DNA from: Escherichia phage KEP2
DNA length: 64,000 bases
Sequence record: PP047752
Strand: one strand, 5' to 3'
Part shown: one piece after another, positions 1 through 10,195 of the stretch
Layout: each line of letters begins with the position of its first letter
Position numbering within the stretch: the first letter of the stretch is position 1
The notes under the pieces: model-generated
Seen by the model: only the letters and a program-made list of their open reading frames with translations
The model's database searches: none
Told to the model about the DNA's origin: nothing
Position numbers and translations under genes: made by a program

Positions 1-3109
<3,109 letters not shown>

Positions 3110-3110
<1 letters not shown>

Positions 3111-4579
3111 TGGCAGGATTAACTACAACAGGATTACAAACTCTAAGATATCAGGAAATTTTTGATAATATCAAATCAAGACTTCTTAGAGATATTTCAC
3201 CCAACCTTGACGTTTCTGAAGATAGCCAATTAGGACTCTTCCTAGCTTCAATTGCAAGGTCTTTAGCAGATACTCATGAGATTCTATCAGAAATCTACGA
3301 TGGGGGTACAATTGATAAGGCTGAAGGCTTTAACCTTGATGATATCACAGCTTTAAATGCGGTATACAGATATGTTGCTCAGGCAACAAGAGGCCAAGTT
3401 GAGTTTACTGGAACGACTGGTGCTACCATTCCTTCAACAACAAGATTAAGAAGTACTGCCGGAAACATCTTTTACCCAGTTAATAATATTACCCTTACTC
3501 CATCATATTGTGTTGAAGCTATTCTTGAAGTTAACTCTTTACGAACTGATGCAGATTATGTTATTATTATTGATAACGTCATTTTCTCATATAAACCAAC
3601 CTCATCAGACACAATCACCACGCTTCTAACAAAATTATCAGAAGCTATTAATGGTGGTATTGTAGCAAAAGCAGAAGTCATTAATGATGGAGCCGCACTA
3701 AGAGTCTATAAAGACGAGGGCGATATCATTGCAAGAACAAACCCTATGGTTGTCACTGCAACAACGTTTCTGACCTTTACAAAAATTACAACTATTTCAG
3801 ATGTAGTAGCTGAAGAGGTTGGTGCTACCCCTGCTTTGGCTGGTACGCTTATTGAGATTGAGACAACTGTTGATGGTCTTGACAGTATTTATAACAGGTA
3901 TGACTTAACAACTGGTAGAAACGAAGAAACTGACACAGAACTTAGACAGAGATATTTAGAGTCCTTAGCAGTTACTGGTGTAGGGACTTTAGATGCAATT
4001 GTAGCTGCTGTTAAAAGAGTTCAAGGTGTCTCAGATGCTTCAGGTGTTGAGAATGATACTGAAGAGACAAGCTCAGAAGGTCTTCCACCAAAATCTTTTA
4101 AGATTGTTGTAGTTGGTGGTCAAAATGATAATGTTGCTCAAGCAATCTGGGATACAAAACCTGCTGGTATTAGGGCTTATGGCTCAATTTTTGGTACAGC
4201 CCATGATTTAGGTGGTTTGGCACATAATATTTATTTTAGCAGACCAACACCAAAATACGCATTTGTTAAAGTCTCTTACTCTTTATATGATGAAGAAAAC
4301 TTGACAATCCCTGAAGAGGATATCAGAGACAGCATTGTACAAGGTATTAATGCCTACGGAAGAACTCTTAAGGTTGGTAATGATGTTATTCCTAATAGAA
4401 TCTATGGGTATATCTATGACGTAATTAAAGGTATTGAGATTAATGAGGTTAAAGTAGCCTTATCAAACAGCCAATCAGTTCCACCTAGTGATGGGCAGTA
4501 TACTACAGCAAGAATTACTGTTGACGGTGACCAATATACTGTTTGGGAAAGCAGCCAGTATACTATCACTAAGGAGTAA
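3110..4579 (+). CDS. putative baseplate J-like protein
   Basis: 489 aa in conserved baseplate gene order before tail fibres. Confidence 0.4.
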
Positions 4580-4581
4580 TA

Positions 4582-5436
4582 ATGTTTGAGAAGATTGATA
4601 GTGTTTATTACAAAACACTTGATGAAAGGACTGTAACACAGTTTAAAGATAAATTTATCTATACAAGTATCTTGAAAGCAATCACTGATGAATTACAAAC
4701 TCTAGAGGATGTTTGCTGGCAGATGCACACGGAGAGAAATATCAGAACGTCAGTAGGCCAACAACTTGATAATATTGGCTCACTGATTAAAGTTCCTAGA
4801 CCTTTAGGTGCAGATGATGAAACATATAGGGCTATGCTTTATATTCAAATCTTCCTAAGACGCTCTGACACTACTCCAACATTCTTGCAAAAAGCAATTA
4901 TGACACTATATGGTGCAACTTTCTCTCAGATTTTTGAGCATATTACTCCTAAGACTGGTGGCATTGTTATCCGTATCAACACTAGAAAAAGCGTTCTAGA
5001 TGCTGCATATACACTGTCAAAGATTTCTGCAACAACTACTGGTTCCGCTGTTATCTTAAGAGATGTTACTTTAAATGGAACCGCTTGGACACCTGTAGAG
5101 GTTGCTGATTCATCACTTGCTATTGTTGATGATAAAGAGAACTGGTTTGTAACTGATGCTAACAGAGGTCTTGTCACGAATAACACTGGTGGCTCTCTGG
5201 AGTCCAACTTAGTAGGTAGTCTTGCAGATGCTGGTGTTATTGATGGTTACTTTAGGGTTGACAGAACAGCAAACTCACAGAGTGATGATTATATGACTGT
5301 AGATAGGTCCAATAATAGTGGCTATTTCATCGTTGGTAAAGAAGCTATTGCAGGTGGTGCATACGGAGTCATGGCTGAGGTTGCACAAATTGTCAAAGGC
5401 AGAAAAGATAAATCACAACAAGAAGGAAATTCCTAA
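4582..5436 (+). CDS. putative baseplate/tail-fibre-associated protein
   Basis: Position between J-like gene and tail fibre genes. Confidence 0.3.
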
Positions 5437-5738
5437 TGGCAGTTTTAAATTGGTCTACAAATGAGGTGGACACTGACGGTAATCAGTTAAAAGTCTTACC
5501 ACCAACAGAAGTCCAAGAGACAGGTCTTTTAAAGGGTGAACCTATGGGTAGGCAATGGTTCAACTATATTATCAACTACCTACTGAATAAAGTAAACGGT
5601 ACTGTTGGTGAAGTTCGCTCATATGCAACTCAGCAACCAGATTTAGTAGCCAATGGCTGGAAACTGATTAAGTCTGAGACAGGTACTGCAACAACAAGTA
5701 CAAAGAACCTTTACACATATGAATATGTAGGAGCTTAA
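5436..5738 (+). CDS. hypothetical protein
   Basis: 100-aa ORF coupled to flanking structural genes. Confidence 0.3.
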
Positions 5739-5740
5739 TA

Positions 5741-6916
5741 ATGGCAGTCGGTGAAATTCAAATTAGTGCCTTGCCACAAGCGGCCTTACCAGTTGATTTA
5801 AGTGATATCTTCCATCTTAAGCAAGGTGTTGAGGATAAAAGATGTACGCTTGAACAGTTGTTAGCACCTCACGCATCTTTGAGGAATAATCCTCATGGTG
5901 TAACCAAATCGCAAGTGGGTCTTGATAATGTTATTAACTCTCTTCAATTAGTTGCAGCTAATAACTTGTCAGACATTGTGAATGTTGCTGAGGCAAGAGC
6001 AAATCTACAAATTATGTCGTCAGAGGAAGTGAATAACTTAATTCAACAACATATTGACGACAAAAGTAACCCACACAATACGACGAAAGCACAGGTCGGT
6101 TTAAGTAATGTTCAGAACTGGACAACATCTAATCTGTACAATGAAGATGCTGATAAGTATGCTACCGCGAGAGCAGTGAATAATTTATACAAAGCTATCC
6201 AAGCATCATATCCAGTAGGGACTATTCATCTATCTGTTAATTCTGCTAACCCAGCCACTTACTTGCTTTGTGGAGGTACTTGGGAGTTAGTTTCTAGAGG
6301 TAGAGCACTAGTTGGTTATGATACAAATTCTAGACCTGTTGGTTCAACGTTTGGTTCTCAGACTGTAGTATTAACAAATAACAATTTACCAGCACATACT
6401 CACTCTATCTATCTAACAGGTGGTGGTCATACACACTCTGCAAGTGTATCTATCTCTAGTTTTGATTATGGTTCAAAGAGTACATCAACTTTTGACTATG
6501 GTACGAAGGCAACTAACAGTGCTGGTGCTCACACTCACACGTTTAGCGGCACGACAAGTAATGATGGTAACCATAACCATAGAGTACCACTGAGGGGTAA
6601 TGATAGAAGTGGGTCAAATGCTATTACTGCATCTGCTTATGCTGGGATTGATAATAATATGTATACTGATTTAGCAGGTGCTCACACCCATAGCTTCTCA
6701 GGCACAACTGCATCATCTGGTGCTCATAGTCATACTGTTGCAATTGGTGCTCATAGCCACACTGTTAATATTGGTTCACACAGTCATACGGGTACTGTTA
6801 CTGTCTCTAACTCTGAACATACACACTCAGGAACATCCGGTTCTGTTGGTGGTGGTCAAGCTTTCAGTGTTGAGCAGCCATCTTTTGTCGTATATGTATG
6901 GCAGAGAACAGCTTAA
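5741..6916 (+). CDS. tail fibre protein with N-terminal tail-fibre repeats and C-terminal HxH repeats
   Basis: Two copies of NPH..TK.QVGL.NV motif (phage tail-fibre repeat); C-terminal run of AHTHS/GAHSHT/HxH motifs typical of metal-binding fibre tips. Confidence 0.7.
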   Translation: MAVGEIQISALPQAALPVDLSDIFHLKQGVEDKRCTLEQLLAPHASLRNNPHGVTKSQVGLDNVINSLQLVAANNLSDIVNVAEARANLQIMSSEEVNNLIQQHIDDKSNPHNTTKAQVGLSNVQNWTTSNLYNEDADKYATARAVNNLYKAIQASYPVGTIHLSVNSANPATYLLCGGTWELVSRGRALVGYDTNSRPVGSTFGSQTVVLTNNNLPAHTHSIYLTGGGHTHSASVSISSFDYGSKSTSTFDYGTKATNSAGAHTHTFSGTTSNDGNHNHRVPLRGNDRSGSNAITASAYAGIDNNMYTDLAGAHTHSFSGTTASSGAHSHTVAIGAHSHTVNIGSHSHTGTVTVSNSEHTHSGTSGSVGGGQAFSVEQPSFVVYVWQRTA

Positions 6917-6926
6917 TTTCTTTACA

Positions 6927-6946
6927 GGGGCTTTGTAGCCCCTTTT
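6927..6946 (+). terminator. stem-loop GGGGCTttgtAGCCCC followed by TTTT, preceded by TTTACA
   Basis: Perfect 6-bp GC stem plus T-run between tail fibre genes; same GGGGCTT...AAGCCCC hairpin family as the downstream cassettes. Confidence 0.5.
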
Positions 6947-6962
6947 AAGAGGAAAATTTATA

Positions 6963-9512
6963 ATGGCAGATTACAAGTTGAGTCAATTAAACTCAATCGA
7001 CACAATTCGTTCAGAAGACCTATTGCACATCAGAGTTAAGAAAAGACCTGAAATGTTGGGTGACGAAGACCGTAGAATGACCTATCAAGACTTCTTAGCT
7101 TCCTTCAAACTAGAAAGGTTTGTTCAGATTGCTGGGAGCACTATGACGGGGGATTTAGGTATTGTCAAGTTACTTTACGGTGGAAAGGCTGTATTTGACC
7201 CTACAGACTCTTCTGAGATTACTATTGGGGATATTTTAAAGACTTTTAAAATTAACTCAAATGGTCTTAAACTCACTATCGCAGATGCTTCAAGGTCAGC
7301 AACTGTTTATCATACTTTGAATAAACCAAGTCCTAATGAACTTGGCATGAGAACTAATGAAGAGAATGATGCAAGATATGCAAGGCTTGCTGTTACAAAC
7401 ACATTCTCTGGGACTCAGAACATTCAAGGTGATGCTAACTTACTTCGTCTTAGAAACCAGAATGCAAATAATGCGCAATATATTGAGGGTGTGAACTTAG
7501 ATGGTTCAGCTAGATGGTGGGTTGGTATTGGTAGTAATGGCTCTGATGAAGTAAAACTGTACAATAACAAATACAACTCAGCTTTGGCTATTGCAAGCAA
7601 TATCTCTGTTAATAAGTCTTTAGCAATCACTGGACAAGTTCAACCTTCAGATTTCTCTAACTTAGACGCTAGATACTTTACTCAGACAGTCGCTAATCAG
7701 AGATTTGCACAGTTAGCTGGCAATAACACCTTTACAGGTGCTAACACATTTAGGACTATGAGTGTTATTTCAAATGCTGCTGCCATCACACTGCAATGTG
7801 CATCAGCAAACGAATCCCTGTATCTACTTGCAAAAGATTATGAAGGTGGAAACTTATGGTATCTTGGTAAAGGTAGTTCAGGTGCTGGTGTAACTATCTA
7901 CAACTATACCACTAACACCTCTTTGGTCTTAGATGCTGCTGGAGTATCAGCAAATAAAAATGTCAGAATCACTGGTCAAGTTCAACCTTCAGATTGGGCT
8001 AACATTGACTCTAGATATATTCCGGCAGCAACATTAAGTACAATTGCAAGAACTAATGCAAGGAATACTTTTAATGGTGTACAGACAGTTGTTACGGATA
8101 ATGAAGGTCTGATTGTTAAAAACTCTACTCAGAATAGACCATTATATATTCGTGGTGTGGACACTACTAATGTATCAAGATGGTGGATTGGTGTTGGTGG
8201 TGCTGATACGAATGATGTTACCCTAAATAACAGTTATTCTGGAACCCAATTGGTTCTCGGGAATACAACATCATACATTAACAAAACATTGACTATTGCT
8301 GGACAAGTTCAACCTTCAGATTTTTCTAACTTAGATGCTAGATACTTTACGCAAAGTGCTAGTGATAGCAGATACCTAAGAATCAGAAGCACTAGCTTCA
8401 ATGTGGGAAACACTGAGAAGTGGGCTAAAATTGCCACTGTTGTGATGCCACAATCAGCATCCACTGCTGTTATTGAGGTATTTGGTGGGTCAGGTTTTAA
8501 TATTAATACACCACAACAAGCAGGTAAATGTGAAATTGTTCTGCGAACTTCAAATAACAATCCAAAGGGCTTAAATGTTGTTGCTTGGAGAACATCAGAT
8601 AACACCATTGTCAGGGATATTGGTTATGTGAATACTTCTGGAGACACCTATGATATTTACTATCTTGCTGGTACGTATCAAAACAGCACAACGACAAGGG
8701 TTCAGTCTTCTAGTAATGCAAGTGTACAGTTGTTTGAAGTCCCACAGACATTTGATGATGCTCCACAAGGTATTGTGAAGGGTACAATTGCAAAATACTA
8801 CACAAGTTTGCAAAAACCAACCCCTTCAGATATTGGTGCATACACTAAAGCAGAGACTGACCAGAAGATTGCAGAAGCAATTAGTGACTCTACAGACCTG
8901 AATAAAATCTATCCAGTGGGTATTGTGACATGGTTTAACAGTAATGTTAACCCTAATACAGCACTTCCTGGTCTAACTTGGACGTACCTGAATAATGGTG
9001 TTGGTAGAACTATTAGAATTGCAGCAGCAAATGGTTCAGATGTTGCTACAACTGGTGGTTCAGATTCTGTAACGCTATCTGTTGGTAACTTACCTTCACA
9101 CACGCATAGTTTCTCTGCTACTACTTCATCATTTGATTATGGTACTAAGACGACAAATACGACTGGCAACCATGCTCACGATAGAGGTAACATGGAAATT
9201 TCTGGTGTGGTTGGTTGGTTCAGAAGTGATAACAGTGCATTCTACACTGCGAGCGGTGCGTTTCAGATGGGTAGTTCTCAGGCTTCACATGGCTTCACAG
9301 GCTCTAACTTCACTTACGGTGCTGCTGTTGATTTCCACGCGTCAAGAACTTGGACAGGTGTAACCAACACAACTGGTAACCACGCGCACAGCGTTGGTAT
9401 TGGTGCTCACAGCCACACAGTTAGCGGTAACACAGGTGGCACTGGTTCTGGTTCAGCATTTAGTGTTACTAACCAGTTCTACAAGTTAATGGCTTGGGTG
9501 AGAACTGCTTAA
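6963..9512 (+). CDS. large tail fibre protein with internal repeats
   Basis: 849 aa; motif ITGQVQPSD(F/W)(S/A)N(L/I)D(A/S)RY repeated three times at ~110-aa spacing; C-terminal HTHS/HAHS/HSHT repeats and C-terminal tail similar to the 5741..6916 product. Confidence 0.7.
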   Translation: MADYKLSQLNSIDTIRSEDLLHIRVKKRPEMLGDEDRRMTYQDFLASFKLERFVQIAGSTMTGDLGIVKLLYGGKAVFDPTDSSEITIGDILKTFKINSNGLKLTIADASRSATVYHTLNKPSPNELGMRTNEENDARYARLAVTNTFSGTQNIQGDANLLRLRNQNANNAQYIEGVNLDGSARWWVGIGSNGSDEVKLYNNKYNSALAIASNISVNKSLAITGQVQPSDFSNLDARYFTQTVANQRFAQLAGNNTFTGANTFRTMSVISNAAAITLQCASANESLYLLAKDYEGGNLWYLGKGSSGAGVTIYNYTTNTSLVLDAAGVSANKNVRITGQVQPSDWANIDSRYIPAATLSTIARTNARNTFNGVQTVVTDNEGLIVKNSTQNRPLYIRGVDTTNVSRWWIGVGGADTNDVTLNNSYSGTQLVLGNTTSYINKTLTIAGQVQPSDFSNLDARYFTQSASDSRYLRIRSTSFNVGNTEKWAKIATVVMPQSASTAVIEVFGGSGFNINTPQQAGKCEIVLRTSNNNPKGLNVVAWRTSDNTIVRDIGYVNTSGDTYDIYYLAGTYQNSTTTRVQSSSNASVQLFEVPQTFDDAPQGIVKGTIAKYYTSLQKPTPSDIGAYTKAETDQKIAEAISDSTDLNKIYPVGIVTWFNSNVNPNTALPGLTWTYLNNGVGRTIRIAAANGSDVATTGGSDSVTLSVGNLPSHTHSFSATTSSFDYGTKTTNTTGNHAHDRGNMEISGVVGWFRSDNSAFYTASGAFQMGSSQASHGFTGSNFTYGAAVDFHASRTWTGVTNTTGNHAHSVGIGAHSHTVSGNTGGTGSGSAFSVTNQFYKLMAWVRTA

Positions 9513-9591: not shown

Positions 9592-9789
9592 ATGCCTACA
9601 ATCCTAGCAATTCTTCTAAAAAATCTAGGTAGCTTCTTCTGGAAACTCATTTTATCCCTTCTAAGTGAATACATGATTGAGAAAGTGTTCTTTAAGCTTG
9701 CAAGATACCTTGCGAGTAAGACAGACACACCTATTGATGATGAGTTCGTAGATAACTTAGAAAAAGCTTTTAAGGGGGAGAATAAATGA
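9592..9789 (+). CDS. small membrane protein
   Basis: 65 aa with hydrophobic N-terminus; directly after tail fibres. Confidence 0.3.
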   Translation: MPTILAILLKNLGSFFWKLILSLLSEYMIEKVFFKLARYLASKTDTPIDDEFVDNLEKAFKGENK

Positions 9790-10157
9790 AGTGGCTAGAG
9801 GAAGCTTTTAAAAATAATATTGGTGCAATTGTAGTTGGTATTTTTAGTGTTATTGGGATGTATACCACCATGCAAGTTTCGGATGGTAAGCAAGAAGTGT
9901 CTGTCACAACAAAGTTACAGCAGCTAGATAATTATATCAAATCTAATTACTCAGCTATTCGTGATTTACAGTCTGACATGAGACTGATTCAGCTAGGGAT
10001 GGAGAACCAGAAAGTTCAGTTAGAGAATGTTAAGGGTGAGAACGCAAAACTTACTAAAACTCTGGATAAATTCTCTGACAGTGTGAACAATCTGGCTCAA
10101 TCAGTATCAGCCTTGCAAGCTATTACTGAAAAGAACACAAAGAATACTGAAAAATAA
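9786..10157 (+). CDS. membrane-anchored coiled-coil protein
   Basis: N-terminal TM helix (IGAIVVGIFSVIGMY) then heptad-rich region. Confidence 0.3.
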   Translation: MKWLEEAFKNNIGAIVVGIFSVIGMYTTMQVSDGKQEVSVTTKLQQLDNYIKSNYSAIRDLQSDMRLIQLGMENQKVQLENVKGENAKLTKTLDKFSDSVNNLAQSVSALQAITEKNTKNTEK

Positions 10158-10162
10158 AATTT

Positions 10163-10195
10163 AAGGCTCCTTTTTACGGGAGCCTTTTTTGTTTT
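10163..10195. terminator. bidirectional intrinsic terminator between convergent genes
   Basis: GGCTCC-tttttac-GGGAGCC with T-run on + strand and A-run upstream; lies between + operon end and - strand thyA end. Confidence 0.55.

What the first reader, a model, noticed from the sequence alone, without database searches (positions are those of the whole stretch)
5741..9512. Two tail fibre genes share HxH-repeat C-terminal tips; the larger has three internal ~110-aa repeats
Both fibre proteins end with stretches of (G/A)(A/N)H(T/S)H(T/S) repeats and a similar final ~20 residues (..AFSV...Y...W.RTA), suggesting a shared, exchangeable receptor-binding tip. The 849-aa protein also has three tandem domain repeats marked by ITGQVQPSD(F/W).N.D.RY. 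Repeats of this kind are substrates for recombination and host-range switching.
Basis: seen in the sequence. Interest (0 to 1): 0.4.

Follow-up and report, generated by a model that had tools for sequence, protein, structure and literature searches.

The report
Felix O1-type phage tail fibre genes
These are the short and long tail fibre genes of a Felix O1-like E. coli phage, built from swappable parts as already described for close relatives, so the finding is real but ordinary.

Summary
ORF 5741-6916 (391 aa) has 9 HxH motifs and ORF 6963-9512 (849 aa) has 4, both far above chance. The two C-terminal thirds are homologous (30% identity, E 4e-26). The 849-aa protein contains exactly three ~110-aa repeats.

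The window is a Felixounavirus, 96% identical in DNA to phage ZX4221. The genes are its short (STF) and long (LTF) tail fibres. Cryo-EM work on Bas63 and Sf14 already describes this architecture: T4 gp37-like tips (collar, HxH needle, head) and a repeat shaft like that of T4 gp34.

The HxH motifs and the last ~20 residues are conserved scaffold, not the specificity part. By homology the HxH motifs bind iron, and the C-terminal residues are the strand that returns to the collar. The variable, probably receptor-binding part is the hairpin "head" between the HxH blocks: STF aa 281-312 and LTF aa 740-806.

In this phage the two heads are unrelated. In Felix O1 and UAB_Phi87 both fibres carry the same head. 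VpaE1 carries T4's head. This window's LTF head also sits in a Tequatrovirus gp37 (94% aa identity).

The three repeat bodies are shuffled independently among relatives, with breakpoints in the conserved ITGQVQPSD junctions. Novelty is low.

The parts
5436..5738 (+). 100-aa ORF directly upstream; probable long-fibre platform protein (position of Bas63 gp25)
   Evidence: Full-length match to phrog_4141 (E 1e-59, function unknown). The gene order matches Bas63 gp23-gp27 in PMC12609058: wedge 2 (489 aa, Baseplate_J), wedge 1 (284 aa), this ORF, STF, LTF. The assignment rests on position only.
5741..6916 (+). Short tail fibre (STF) gene, 391 aa
   Evidence: phrog_2097 tail fiber E 1e-137. 95-98% identical to the fibres of wV8-group phages. 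Homologous to Bas63 gp26, Sf14 gp52 and VpaE1 gp74 by the literature.
5885..6118 (+). Two copies of an NPHxxTKxQVGLxNVxN shaft motif in the STF (aa 49-66 and 110-126)
   Evidence: Read from the translation. This part alone matches fibre proteins of jumbo phages and SPbeta (H91-H96).
6173..6424 (+). STF collar domain (aa ~145-228), including the LPAHTH motif
   Evidence: Pfam Gp10_C PF21939, 68 bits against a cut-off of 27. Matches T4 gp10 C-terminal structures 2FKK and 5HX2. pLDDT 77-87 in the monomer model.
6425..6580 (+). STF needle, descending strand (aa 229-280; HxH at 230, 264, 278; two FDYG[ST]K motifs)
   Evidence: Aligned residue by residue to T4 gp37 tip 2XGF, E 4.9e-28. STF H278/H280 align with the EHSHY motif, which is T4 H929/H931 (iron ligands in PMC6957217).
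6581..6676 (+). STF head (hairpin, aa 281-312); probable receptor-contacting part
   Evidence: Aligns to T4 gp37 tip subdomain 932-959 (limits from PMC6957217). Least conserved stretch of the protein: 0.25-0.43 identity across 22 relatives.
6677..6835 (+). STF needle, ascending strand (aa 313-365; HxH at 315, 329, 338, 347, 360)
   Evidence: alignment. H315/H317 and H347/H349 are invariant, and H338/H340 nearly invariant, in 62 homologues down to 40% identity.
6851..6913 (+). STF C-terminal strand (aa 371-391, ..AFSVEQPSFVVYVWQRTA); closes the collar
   Evidence: 0.92 conserved across relatives. Y385, W387 and R389 are invariant. T4 gp37 residues 1010-1026 belong to collar domain D10 (PMC6957217). 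Strand 382-389 has pLDDT ~83.
6963..9512 (+). Long tail fibre (LTF) gene, 849 aa
   Evidence: phrog_4277 tail fiber, full length, E 0. 98% identical to ZX4221_51. Homologous to Bas63 gp27, Sf14 gp53 and VpaE1 gp75.
6963..7370 (+). LTF N-terminal conserved part (aa 1-136); baseplate-binding domain by analogy with Bas63
   Evidence: 0.81-0.97 conserved across relatives. Nearly every residue is invariant in 67 homologues. The function is taken from PMC12609058.
7371..7697 (+). LTF shaft repeat 1 (aa 137-245)
   Evidence: Pfam gp37_trimer PF20744 (three stretches, 255 bits in all). Unit profile E 9e-46. Body aa 141-220 is variable (~0.45). The junction (roughly aa 221-260, running into the start of repeat 2) is conserved (0.83-0.90).
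7698..8039 (+). LTF shaft repeat 2 (aa 246-359)
   Evidence: Unit profile E 1e-40. The whole unit (LTF nt 668-1110) is 95.7% identical in DNA to Salmonella phage UAB_Phi87, with ~50% identity on both sides. The body is only 45% identical in amino acids to wV8, whose neighbouring units are 94-100% identical.
8040..8363 (+). LTF shaft repeat 3 (aa 360-467)
   Evidence: Unit profile E 1e-45. Body is 100% identical to wV8 and 24-62% identical to most other relatives.
8379..8813 (+). LTF middle beta-rich domain (aa 473-617)
   Evidence: ~40% identical to the part of T-even gp37 that precedes the collar and to fibres of phage SJ46. It comes in two length classes among relatives, 155 and ~94 aa. pLDDT 70-86.
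8880..9179 (+). LTF collar and descending needle strand (aa 640-739; HxH at 713 and 737; FDYGTK at 724)
   Evidence: Aligns to the STF collar. Gp10_C scores 25 bits, just under the 27-bit cut-off. 0.93-0.98 conserved over aa 641-720, falling to 0.75 at aa 721-740.
9124..9421 (+). Head cassette as delimited by the match to Tequatrovirus CJY920 gp37 (LTF aa 721-820)
   Evidence: 86.6% nt identity over 298 nt and ~94% aa identity. It is bounded by SSFDYGTK and GIGAHxHTV. The adjoining collar in CJY920 is T4-type and only distantly related.
9180..9380 (+). LTF head (aa 740-806), 66 residues without His pairs; probable receptor-contacting part
   Evidence: Least conserved stretch (0.19). This head type is found in 60 phage records from O157:H7, STEC, Shigella and Citrobacter hosts, and in none isolated on K-12. 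No sequence match in the PDB.
9381..9509 (+). LTF ascending needle strand (HxH at 807, 816) and C-terminal collar strand (..AFSVTNQFYKLMAWVRTA)
   Evidence: 0.97-0.99 conserved across relatives from aa 821 on (0.75 for aa 801-820). Invariant from S831 to A849 in 67 homologues. The same ending occurs in a Klebsiella prophage fibre.
9592..10157 (+). Two small downstream ORFs (65 and 123 aa) lying between the fibre genes and the next terminator-like hairpin (co-transcription inferred from position)
   Evidence: phrog_402 and phrog_4038, function unknown. The only terminator-like hairpin downstream of the LTF is at 10163-10186.

Best explanation
The region encodes the two fibres of a Felixounavirus (wV8/ZX4221 group): a short tail fibre (391 aa) and a long tail fibre (849 aa). 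By homology each is a homotrimer.

Each fibre has a conserved N-terminal baseplate-binding part, a shaft, and a C-terminal receptor-binding module of the T4 gp37 type. In that module the chain forms a collar domain and runs down as one strand of a six-stranded needle. It makes a small head at the far end, then runs back up and ends as the last strand of the collar.

The HxH motifs point into the needle axis. Three chains together would bind one Fe2+ per motif, which zips the trimer. This is inferred from T4.

So the HxH runs and the final ~20 residues are conserved scaffold. Receptor specificity sits in the hypervariable head between the descending and ascending HxH blocks (STF aa 281-312, LTF aa 740-806). 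In this phage the two heads are unrelated, so the fibres probably bind different surface structures, most likely LPS-related ones.

The conserved flanks (FDYGTK and the first HxH on one side; GIGAHxHTV to the C-terminus on the other, 84-92% DNA identity across the genus) act as homology arms. Head cassettes have been swapped through them between the two fibre genes, between Felixounaviruses, and with T-even gp37.

The three ~110-aa LTF repeats are shaft domains (Pfam gp37_trimer, like the T4 gp34 rod). Their variable bodies are separated by conserved ITGQVQPSD..RY linkers. Recombination in these linkers shuffles the bodies independently and occasionally moves or duplicates a body to another position.

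Shown here: the homology, the variability map, and the recombinant blocks with their breakpoints. Inferred: trimer formation, iron binding, chain topology, receptor identity and any effect on host range.
For: Identity of the genes:
- 96% DNA identity to phage ZX4221, and 230 Felixounavirus-type records match.
- PHROG tail-fibre families at E 1e-137 and E 0.
- The gene order wedge 2 / wedge 1 / 100-aa ORF / STF / LTF matches Bas63 gp23-27.

Tip homology:
- STF aa 145-361 against T4 gp37 tip 2XGF, E 4.9e-28. Seven of the nine HxH motifs lie opposite T4's seven.
- LTF aa 707-828, E 1.1e-8.
- Gp10_C collar domain.
- T4 domain limits, iron ligands and receptor-contact residues come from PMC6957217.
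- The same collar/needle/head reading was made for Bas63 STF and LTF by cryo-EM (PMC12609058).

Scaffold versus head:
- Identity to 22 relatives is 0.9-0.99 in the collars and C-termini. It is 0.25-0.43 in the STF head region (aa 281-320) and 0.19-0.20 in the LTF head.
- HxH histidines are invariant or nearly invariant in 62 STF homologues down to 40% identity.

Cassette exchange:
- UAB_Phi87 STF and LTF heads share 62/72 aa and 91% nt over 200 nt.
- Felix O1 STF and LTF share 81% nt over 270 nt.
- The VpaE1 LTF head is 78/84 identical to the T4 gp37 tip. VpaE1 infects only E. coli B strains, and T4 gp37 recognises E. coli B LPS.
- This window's LTF head is ~94% identical in amino acids and 86.6% in DNA to Tequatrovirus CJY920 gp37, and the borders fall at the conserved motifs.

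Repeats:
- Three PF20744 stretches.
- 141 LTFs give 35 body types and 56 combinations. All four pairings of two types at two positions are seen in 46, 16 and 28 cases for the three position pairs. Five types occur at more than one position.
- P0079 has identical bodies at positions 1 and 3.
- Sharp breakpoints lie in the junctions.
- The monomer model of the shaft matches T4 gp34 (4UXG, E 3e-4) and T7 gp17 (4A0U, E 2e-4).
Against: - No structure of the trimer could be computed. The AlphaFold2 monomer models are poor in the tips: LTF 618-849 has pLDDT below 50, and the STF head is below 50. The STF model finds no significant structural neighbour (best is the gp10 collar, E 0.17). Topology and metal binding therefore rest on sequence homology and on published work with relatives.
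- The LTF needle here has only three HxH motifs beyond the collar motif, and its 66-aa head has no known homologue of solved structure. Its fold may differ from the T4 head.
- The LTF collar falls just below the Pfam cut-off (25 against 27 bits).
- T4 gp37 needs the chaperones gp38 and gp57A. No such gene lies next to these fibre genes, and how the tips fold is not addressed.
- The correlation between head type and host uses host names as written in database records, which is a weak and biased sample.
Confidence: 0.88

Rival explanations
1. One reading: the HxH runs together with the final ~20 residues are the receptor-binding tip, and that tip is shared by the two fibres of this phage.
For: The two C-terminal parts are homologous. 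In Felix O1 and UAB_Phi87 the two fibres really do carry the same head.
Against: The HxH motifs and the last 20 residues are the most conserved positions across phages with different hosts. In T4 the corresponding residues are iron ligands and a collar strand, and receptor contacts map to 932-959 (PMC6957217). In this window the two heads share only 17/51 residues.
Confidence: 0.07
2. The variable repeat bodies and heads reflect fast point-mutation drift or diversifying selection in place, not exchange of cassettes by recombination. Bas63 paper (PMC12609058) comes close to this by attributing the repeat-domain diversity to 'substantial sequence variation between species'.
For: Many same-position bodies are only 24-60% identical, which on its own looks like old divergence.
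Against: Blocks of 95.7-100% DNA identity are bounded by ~50% identity, and the switch takes place within 60-90 nt inside the junction motifs. The same body type is found in many different combinations, and all four pairings are seen repeatedly. Body types are found at a different repeat position (L018 R1 is 89% identical to L003 R3; P0079 R1 equals R3). A head cassette is shared with a Tequatrovirus at 86.6% DNA identity next to an unrelated collar.
Confidence: 0.05
3. The shaft repeat bodies are themselves binding sites, for example for O-antigen or other surface glycans along the fibre or for the phage's own sheath in the folded-back state. Their shuffling would then be selected for specificity rather than being a neutral by-product of repeated homology.
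For: The bodies are as variable as the heads (0.40-0.61 identity by 20-aa block, mostly 0.44-0.50) while the linkers are conserved. Discrete types are reused across hosts. Bas63 fibres lie along the sheath and contact it.
Against: No binding data exist. No recognisable carbohydrate-binding domain was found. One body type is shared at 99% amino-acid identity between a Salmonella phage and this E. coli O157-type phage, which argues against strict host specificity.
Confidence: 0.25

Closest known systems
Bas63 (Escherichia phage JohannRWettstein) STF gp26 and LTF gp27; cryo-EM, PMC12609058
   Same: Same genus and same gene order. Both fibres have a T4 gp37-like collar/needle/head tip with HxH motifs. 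The chain doubles back at the head. The LTF has beta-helix repeat domains separated by conserved helix-and-turn linkers. Tips and repeat domains are variable across the genus.
   Different: Bas63 LTF is reported with six HxH motifs and five beta-helix domains. This LTF has four HxH motifs (one of them in the collar), a 66-aa head without His pairs, and only three repeats detectable by sequence. I did not align the Bas63 proteins themselves.
T4 long tail fibre distal subunit gp37, receptor-binding tip (PDB 2XGF; PMC6957217)
   Same: Collar domain with the needle inserted into it. Seven HxH iron sites, matched one for one by seven STF motifs. FDYGTK motifs. Head at the hairpin. C-terminal strand returning to the collar. 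The middle domain and one repeat unit of the LTF also match gp37 (41% over 486 aligned positions with CJY920 gp37).
   Different: gp37 is 1026 aa and is joined to gp34-36 in a four-protein fibre. It needs gp38 and gp57A. Here each fibre is a single gene product attached directly to the baseplate, and no gp38-like gene is adjacent.
T4 proximal fibre gp34 rod (PDB 4UXE, 4UXG, 5NXH) and Pfam gp37_trimer PF20744
   Same: Repeated beta-rich shaft domains. Three PF20744 stretches. The Foldseek match of the monomer model to gp34 covers about 465 columns.
   Different: Low TM-scores (0.11-0.23), because a monomer model was compared with a chain from an intertwined trimer. Sequence identity is 12-15%.
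VpaE1 gp74/gp75 and Sf14 gp52/gp53 (PMC4690856, PMC11821841)
   Same: Orthologous fibre pairs. A conserved N-terminus, a variable middle and a variable C-terminus were noted in 2015. The LPS outer core was proposed as receptor.
   Different: VpaE1 carries a T4-type LTF head (78/84). Sf14 carries this window's head type at 79% identity.
Mosaic tail-fibre genes of T-even, lambdoid, P1/P2/Mu phages (classical work, cited from memory: Haggard-Ljungquist 1992; Tetart 1996, 1998 'His boxes')
   Same: Conserved short motifs, including GxHxH, flank variable adhesin segments and serve as recombination points. The STF needle is ~50% identical to T4 gp37 and to lambdoid side tail fibres.

Membership tests
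T4 gp37-type receptor-binding tip (collar-needle-head, PDB 2XGF) | Significant sequence similarity to gp37 residues ~800-1013 across collar, both needle strands and head | tested here: met
   STF aa 145-361 against 2XGF chain positions 17-229, E 4.9e-28. LTF aa 707-828, E 1.1e-8.
T4 gp37-type receptor-binding tip (collar-needle-head, PDB 2XGF) | Collar domain of the gp10/gp12/gp37 fold preceding the needle | tested here: met
   STF: Pfam Gp10_C 68 bits (cut-off 27), plus 2FKK and 5HX2 matches. LTF: 25 bits, just under the cut-off, but its collar aligns to the STF collar and homologues carry a precomputed PF21939 hit.
T4 gp37-type receptor-binding tip (collar-needle-head, PDB 2XGF) | HxH motifs on both the descending and the ascending strand, conserved among homologues | tested here: met
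   STF: 3 descending and 4 ascending motifs opposite T4's seven, plus two extra. The histidines are invariant or nearly invariant in 62 homologues. LTF: 1 descending and 2 ascending, plus the collar motif, so it is a shortened version.
T4 gp37-type receptor-binding tip (collar-needle-head, PDB 2XGF) | Chain doubles back at the head, and the C-terminal strand completes the collar | tested here: inconclusive
   The monomer model shows long strands 222-241 and 347-365 and a confident last strand 382-389. Coordinates could not be inspected, and Foldseek found no significant match. Support is indirect: a conserved C-terminal motif and the Bas63 cryo-EM.
T4 gp37-type receptor-binding tip (collar-needle-head, PDB 2XGF) | Homotrimer with Fe2+ bound by six histidines per site | not testable with these tools
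   No multimer prediction or metal analysis is available. Inferred from T4 (PMC6957217).
T4 gp37-type receptor-binding tip (collar-needle-head, PDB 2XGF) | Dedicated folding chaperone (gp38 / gp57A) encoded nearby | not tested
   The two downstream ORFs match only PHROGs of unknown function. The rest of the window was not screened for chaperone homologues. CJY920 and ZQ3 gp37 are followed by a 183-aa ORF in the position of gp38.
gp37_trimer (PF20744) / T4 gp34-like shaft repeats | Repeated match to the family profile above the curated cut-off | tested here: met
   Three stretches, 255 bits against a cut-off of 21.7. My own unit profile finds three copies, E 1e-40 to 1e-46.
gp37_trimer (PF20744) / T4 gp34-like shaft repeats | Fold similarity to the gp34 rod | tested here: inconclusive
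   Foldseek matches 4UXG, 4UXE and 5NXH at E 3e-4 to 4e-3, but TM-scores are 0.11-0.23 and the model's mean pLDDT is 55.
Felixounavirus STF/LTF pair (Bas63 gp26/gp27) | Near-identity to annotated fibre genes of the genus, and the same gene order after the baseplate wedge genes | tested here: met
   96.4% DNA identity over the whole 3772 nt to ZX4221. Same order in 24 of the 25 related loci; the 25th (L024) is a contig-end fragment. Baseplate_J and DUF2612-like wedge genes lie upstream.
Fibres/spikes with a C-terminal intramolecular chaperone domain (Peptidase_S74 type) | C-terminal ~150-aa autoproteolytic chaperone domain | tested here: not met
   No such Pfam hit. Only ~20-30 residues follow the last HxH motif.

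The most novel reading that the evidence does not exclude
The three shaft repeat bodies of the long fibre are not inert spacers. On this reading they are independently exchangeable functional cassettes. Recombination in the conserved ITGQVQPSD linkers mixes at least 35 body types into many combinations and can move or duplicate a body between positions. This would give the fibre a combinatorial set of lateral binding surfaces, for surface glycans or for docking on the sheath, in addition to the head. The shuffling itself is shown here. Its functional meaning is not.
Probability: 0.25. Interest if true: 0.5.

Novelty: already known. Interest (0 to 1): 0.22.

Why it matters
Felix O1-like phages are used for Salmonella typing and as biocontrol and therapy candidates against Salmonella, E. 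coli O157 and Shigella. Knowing which residues are scaffold and which are swappable tells an engineer where to cut.

- Head cassette borders: FDYGTK / first HxH on one side and GIGAHxHTV on the other.
- Repeat unit borders: the ITGQVQPSD linkers.

Nature has already moved these cassettes between the two fibres, between genera, and into T-even gp37. None of this changes the current picture of tail-fibre biology. It places one more phage within that picture.

Tried and rejected
1. AlphaFold2 monomer models of both fibres with deep alignments. The tips came out at low confidence, as expected for intertwined trimers. Foldseek on the STF model found nothing significant. On the LTF model it found only weak gp34, T7 gp17 and tailspike matches. 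The models were used only as minor support.
2. BLASTP of the 849-aa protein against itself reported only the identity hit. The repeats had to be compared as separate segments.
3. A search for further, diverged copies of the repeat unit, to account for the five beta-helix domains reported in Bas63. The profile finds only three. The N-terminal and middle segments give only marginal hits to the repeats (E 0.006-0.012).
4. NCBIfam: no family for either fibre.
5. PDB sequence search with the 66-aa LTF head: nothing up to E 10.
6. The T4 gp37 tip structure paper (PMC2996694) is not held. Domain limits were taken from PMC6957217 instead.
7. The 2026 preprints on receptor prediction and on O157 adsorption routes carry no receptor assignment for Felixounavirus.
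8. A C-terminal intramolecular chaperone reading of the last 20 residues was considered and rejected: too short and no S74 domain.
9. The out-of-frame ORFs inside the two genes (for example 6678-6938 + and 7424-7630 -) were treated as chance ORFs, because each lies within one of the two fibre coding sequences (6678-6938 runs 22 nt past the STF stop).

Full report
**What is there**

Megablast of the 3772-nt region finds 230 phage records. Nearly all are Felix O1-like myoviruses of E. coli, Salmonella and Shigella. The best is Escherichia phage ZX4221 at 96.4% identity over the full length, followed by the O157:H7 phages wV8, the O157 typing phages, JN01 and HY02. The window is therefore part of a Felixounavirus genome.

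Upstream lie a Baseplate_J protein (489 aa), a DUF2612-like wedge protein (284 aa) and a 100-aa ORF. This is the gene order of Bas63 gp23-gp27, where gp26 is the short tail fibre (STF) and gp27 the long tail fibre (LTF) (PMC12609058). Both ORFs match PHROG tail-fibre families over their full length (E 1e-137 and E 0).

**Checking the observation**

- HxH motifs: the 391-aa protein has 9, where shuffling gives a mean of 1.4 and a maximum of 7. The 849-aa protein has 4, where shuffling gives a mean of 0.16 and a maximum of 3.
- Shared C-terminal part: aa 136-391 of the short protein align with aa 623-849 of the long one at 30% identity, E 4e-26. The last 22 residues share 10 identities.
- Repeats: the motif I[TA]GQVQPSD[FW].N.D.RY occurs at aa 222, 336 and 445. 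The three units (137-245, 246-358, 360-467) are 33-44% identical, E 1e-16 to 3e-30. Pfam sees them as three gp37_trimer (PF20744) stretches. A profile built from the units of 23 phages finds exactly three copies.
- In DNA only the junctions resemble each other, as 76-nt copies spaced 342 and 327 nt apart.

**What the HxH region and the C-terminus are**

The STF aligns from aa 145 to 361 with the crystal-structure construct of the T4 gp37 receptor-binding tip (2XGF), E 4.9e-28. Seven of its HxH motifs lie opposite T4's seven. The LTF aligns over aa 707-828, E 1e-8. The collar matches Pfam Gp10_C and T4 gp10 structures.

According to PMC6957217, the T4 tip is organised as follows:
- Collar D10 is made of residues 811-881 plus 1010-1026.
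- Needle D11 (882-1009) is an insertion into the collar.
- The tip subdomain is 932-959, and it carries the residues that contact LPS and OmpC.
- The histidines (for example H929 and H931) bind seven iron atoms along the needle.

In the alignment, STF H278/H280 lie opposite the EHSHY motif that contains T4 H929/H931. STF 281-308 therefore corresponds to the T4 tip. The last ~20 residues correspond to the strand that returns to the collar. The Bas63 cryo-EM paper describes the same topology for both fibres of a congener.

My own structure predictions could only be made for monomers, and they are weak in the tips. They add little beyond a confident collar and a confident last strand in the STF. 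Foldseek on the STF model was not significant.

**Where the variation is**

I extracted both fibre genes from 25 related viral contigs; the 22 with both genes intact were used. I then measured identity to the window proteins.

In the STF:
- Identity is 0.8-0.98 up to aa 200.
- It falls to 0.25-0.43 at aa 281-320.
- It returns to 0.92 in the last 11 residues.

In the LTF:
- aa 1-140 are conserved.
- Each repeat has a variable body (mostly 0.44-0.50; range 0.40-0.61) and a conserved junction (0.77-0.90).
- aa 461-620 are variable and come in two length classes.
- The collar is 0.93-0.98 conserved over aa 641-720 and 0.75 at aa 721-740.
- aa 741-800 are at 0.19-0.20.
- From aa 821 to the C-terminus, identity is 0.97-0.99.

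DNA identity in the conserved flanks is 84-92%. The HxH histidines are invariant or nearly so in 62 STF homologues down to 40% identity. The LTF C-terminus is invariant from S831 to A849 in 67 homologues.

The head between the HxH blocks is the variable element.

**Is the tip exchangeable?**

Yes, but the unit is the head with its inner needle segments. In this phage the two fibres carry different heads (17/51 identities). Relatives show the exchange in several ways.

- Exchange between the two fibres of one genome: in UAB_Phi87 (L017) the STF and LTF heads share 62/72 residues and 91% DNA identity over 200 nt. In Felix O1 itself the same head sits on both fibres, with 81% DNA identity over 270 nt.
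- A T4 head in a Felixounavirus: VpaE1 (L012) and AYO145A (L005) carry an LTF head that is 78/84 and 74/84 identical to the T4 gp37 tip. VpaE1 infects only E. coli B strains, and T4 gp37 recognises E. coli B LPS (PMC4690856).
- This window's head type: it occurs in 60 phage records from O157:H7, other STEC, Shigella and Citrobacter hosts. None of them was isolated on K-12.
- The same head in T-even phages: it also occurs in gp37 of two T-even phages. In Tequatrovirus CJY920 the match is ~94% in amino acids and 86.6% in DNA over LTF nt 2162-2459. It starts at SSFDYGTK and ends at GIGAHxHTV, while the neighbouring collar is T4-type.
- The same module in a prophage: a 257-aa fibre of a Klebsiella prophage has the same collar, short needle and C-terminal ending in the same baseplate gene context.

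**The repeats as recombination substrates**

Among the 23 phages, repeat bodies fall into discrete types that combine freely. With the 120 database homologues added, there are 141 proteins, 35 types and 56 combinations. All four pairings of two types at two positions are seen 46, 16 and 28 times for the three position pairs. Five types occur at more than one position. One protein (P0079) has identical bodies at positions 1 and 3.

Breakpoints are sharp:
- Against UAB_Phi87, LTF nt 668-1110 (one whole unit) is 95.7% identical, and 100% in its core. Both sides are ~50% identical.
- Against wV8, identity is ~93%, then ~55% across the body of repeat 2, then 98-100%.

The Bas63 paper noted the "unexpected" lack of conservation of these domains and attributed it to sequence variation. 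The data here show that it is largely cassette exchange. Whether the bodies have a binding function is unknown.

**Comparison with what is known, and verdict**

The architecture is published for Bas63, Sf14 and VpaE1 and for T4 gp37. This covers two fibres, gp37-like tips with HxH motifs, a gp34-like repeat shaft, variable tips and variable repeat domains. Mosaic tail-fibre genes with conserved recombination motifs are classical knowledge (from memory, not read here). The window's genes are 96-98% identical to deposited ones.

What this analysis adds is detail:
- the exact scaffold and cassette borders;
- the unusual short needle and 66-aa head of this LTF type, which has no PDB relative by sequence;
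- its presence in T-even gp37;
- the combinatorial, occasionally out-of-register shuffling of repeat bodies.

The finding is real.

Noticed in passing
L029 (Felix O1) 3001-4167 and 4218-6566; L017 (UAB_Phi87): In Felix O1 and UAB_Phi87 the short and long fibres carry the same head cassette (81% and 91% DNA identity over 270 and 200 nt). In the window phage the two heads are unrelated. I saw no mention of this in the papers read.
   Followed up: yes
L026 (Tequatrovirus CJY920) 3972-4269; L027 (Mosigvirus ZQ3) 4001-4216; window 9124-9421: The window's LTF head cassette sits at the end of gp37 in two T-even phages (about 94% and 69% aa identity). There it is followed by a 183-aa ORF in the position of gp38. 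The Felixounavirus locus has no such neighbour.
   Followed up: partly
L012 (VpaE1) LTF tip, about 5980-6250; L005 (AYO145A): These LTF heads are 78/84 and 74/84 identical to the T4 gp37 tip subdomain and its flanking HxH strands. VpaE1 is restricted to E. coli B, whose LPS T4 also recognises.
   Followed up: partly
Protein P0079 (ENA contig of 89 kb), aa ~145-215 and ~365-435: A relative's long fibre has identical repeat bodies at positions 1 and 3 (100% over 70 aa). This points to an intragenic duplication or gene conversion through the conserved linkers. P0099 has at position 3 a body type that others carry at position 2 (97%).
   Followed up: partly
window 5885-5938 and 6068-6118: The short fibre shaft holds two copies of an NPHxxTKxQVGLxNVxN motif about 60 residues apart. 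This part alone matches fibre-like proteins of jumbo phages and of Bacillus phage SPbeta.
   Followed up: no
window 9592-9789 and 9786-10157; hairpin 10163-10186: Two small ORFs (65 aa with a hydrophobic N-terminus; 123 aa) lie between the long fibre gene and a bidirectional terminator-like hairpin. They match large PHROG families of unknown function. They could be assembly or lysis factors.
   Followed up: no
L002 4001-6344 and L007 4001-6371: In two relatives the long fibre gene is split into two ORFs (453+311 aa and 541+259 aa). A frameshift or a sequencing error is the likely cause.
   Followed up: no
L028 (Klebsiella prophage ST16-OXA48phi5.2) 2240-3013: A 257-aa fibre after Baseplate_J and DUF2612 genes has the same collar, three-HxH needle and ..KLMGWYRSA ending as the window's long fibre (43% identity). 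This short-needle tip type is therefore not confined to Felix O1-like phages.
   Followed up: partly
window 8379-8813 (LTF aa 473-617): This middle domain comes in two unrelated length classes among relatives (about 155 aa and about 94 aa). The long form is about 40% identical to the pre-collar part of T-even gp37 and to fibres of phage SJ46. It looks like a further exchangeable module.
   Followed up: partly
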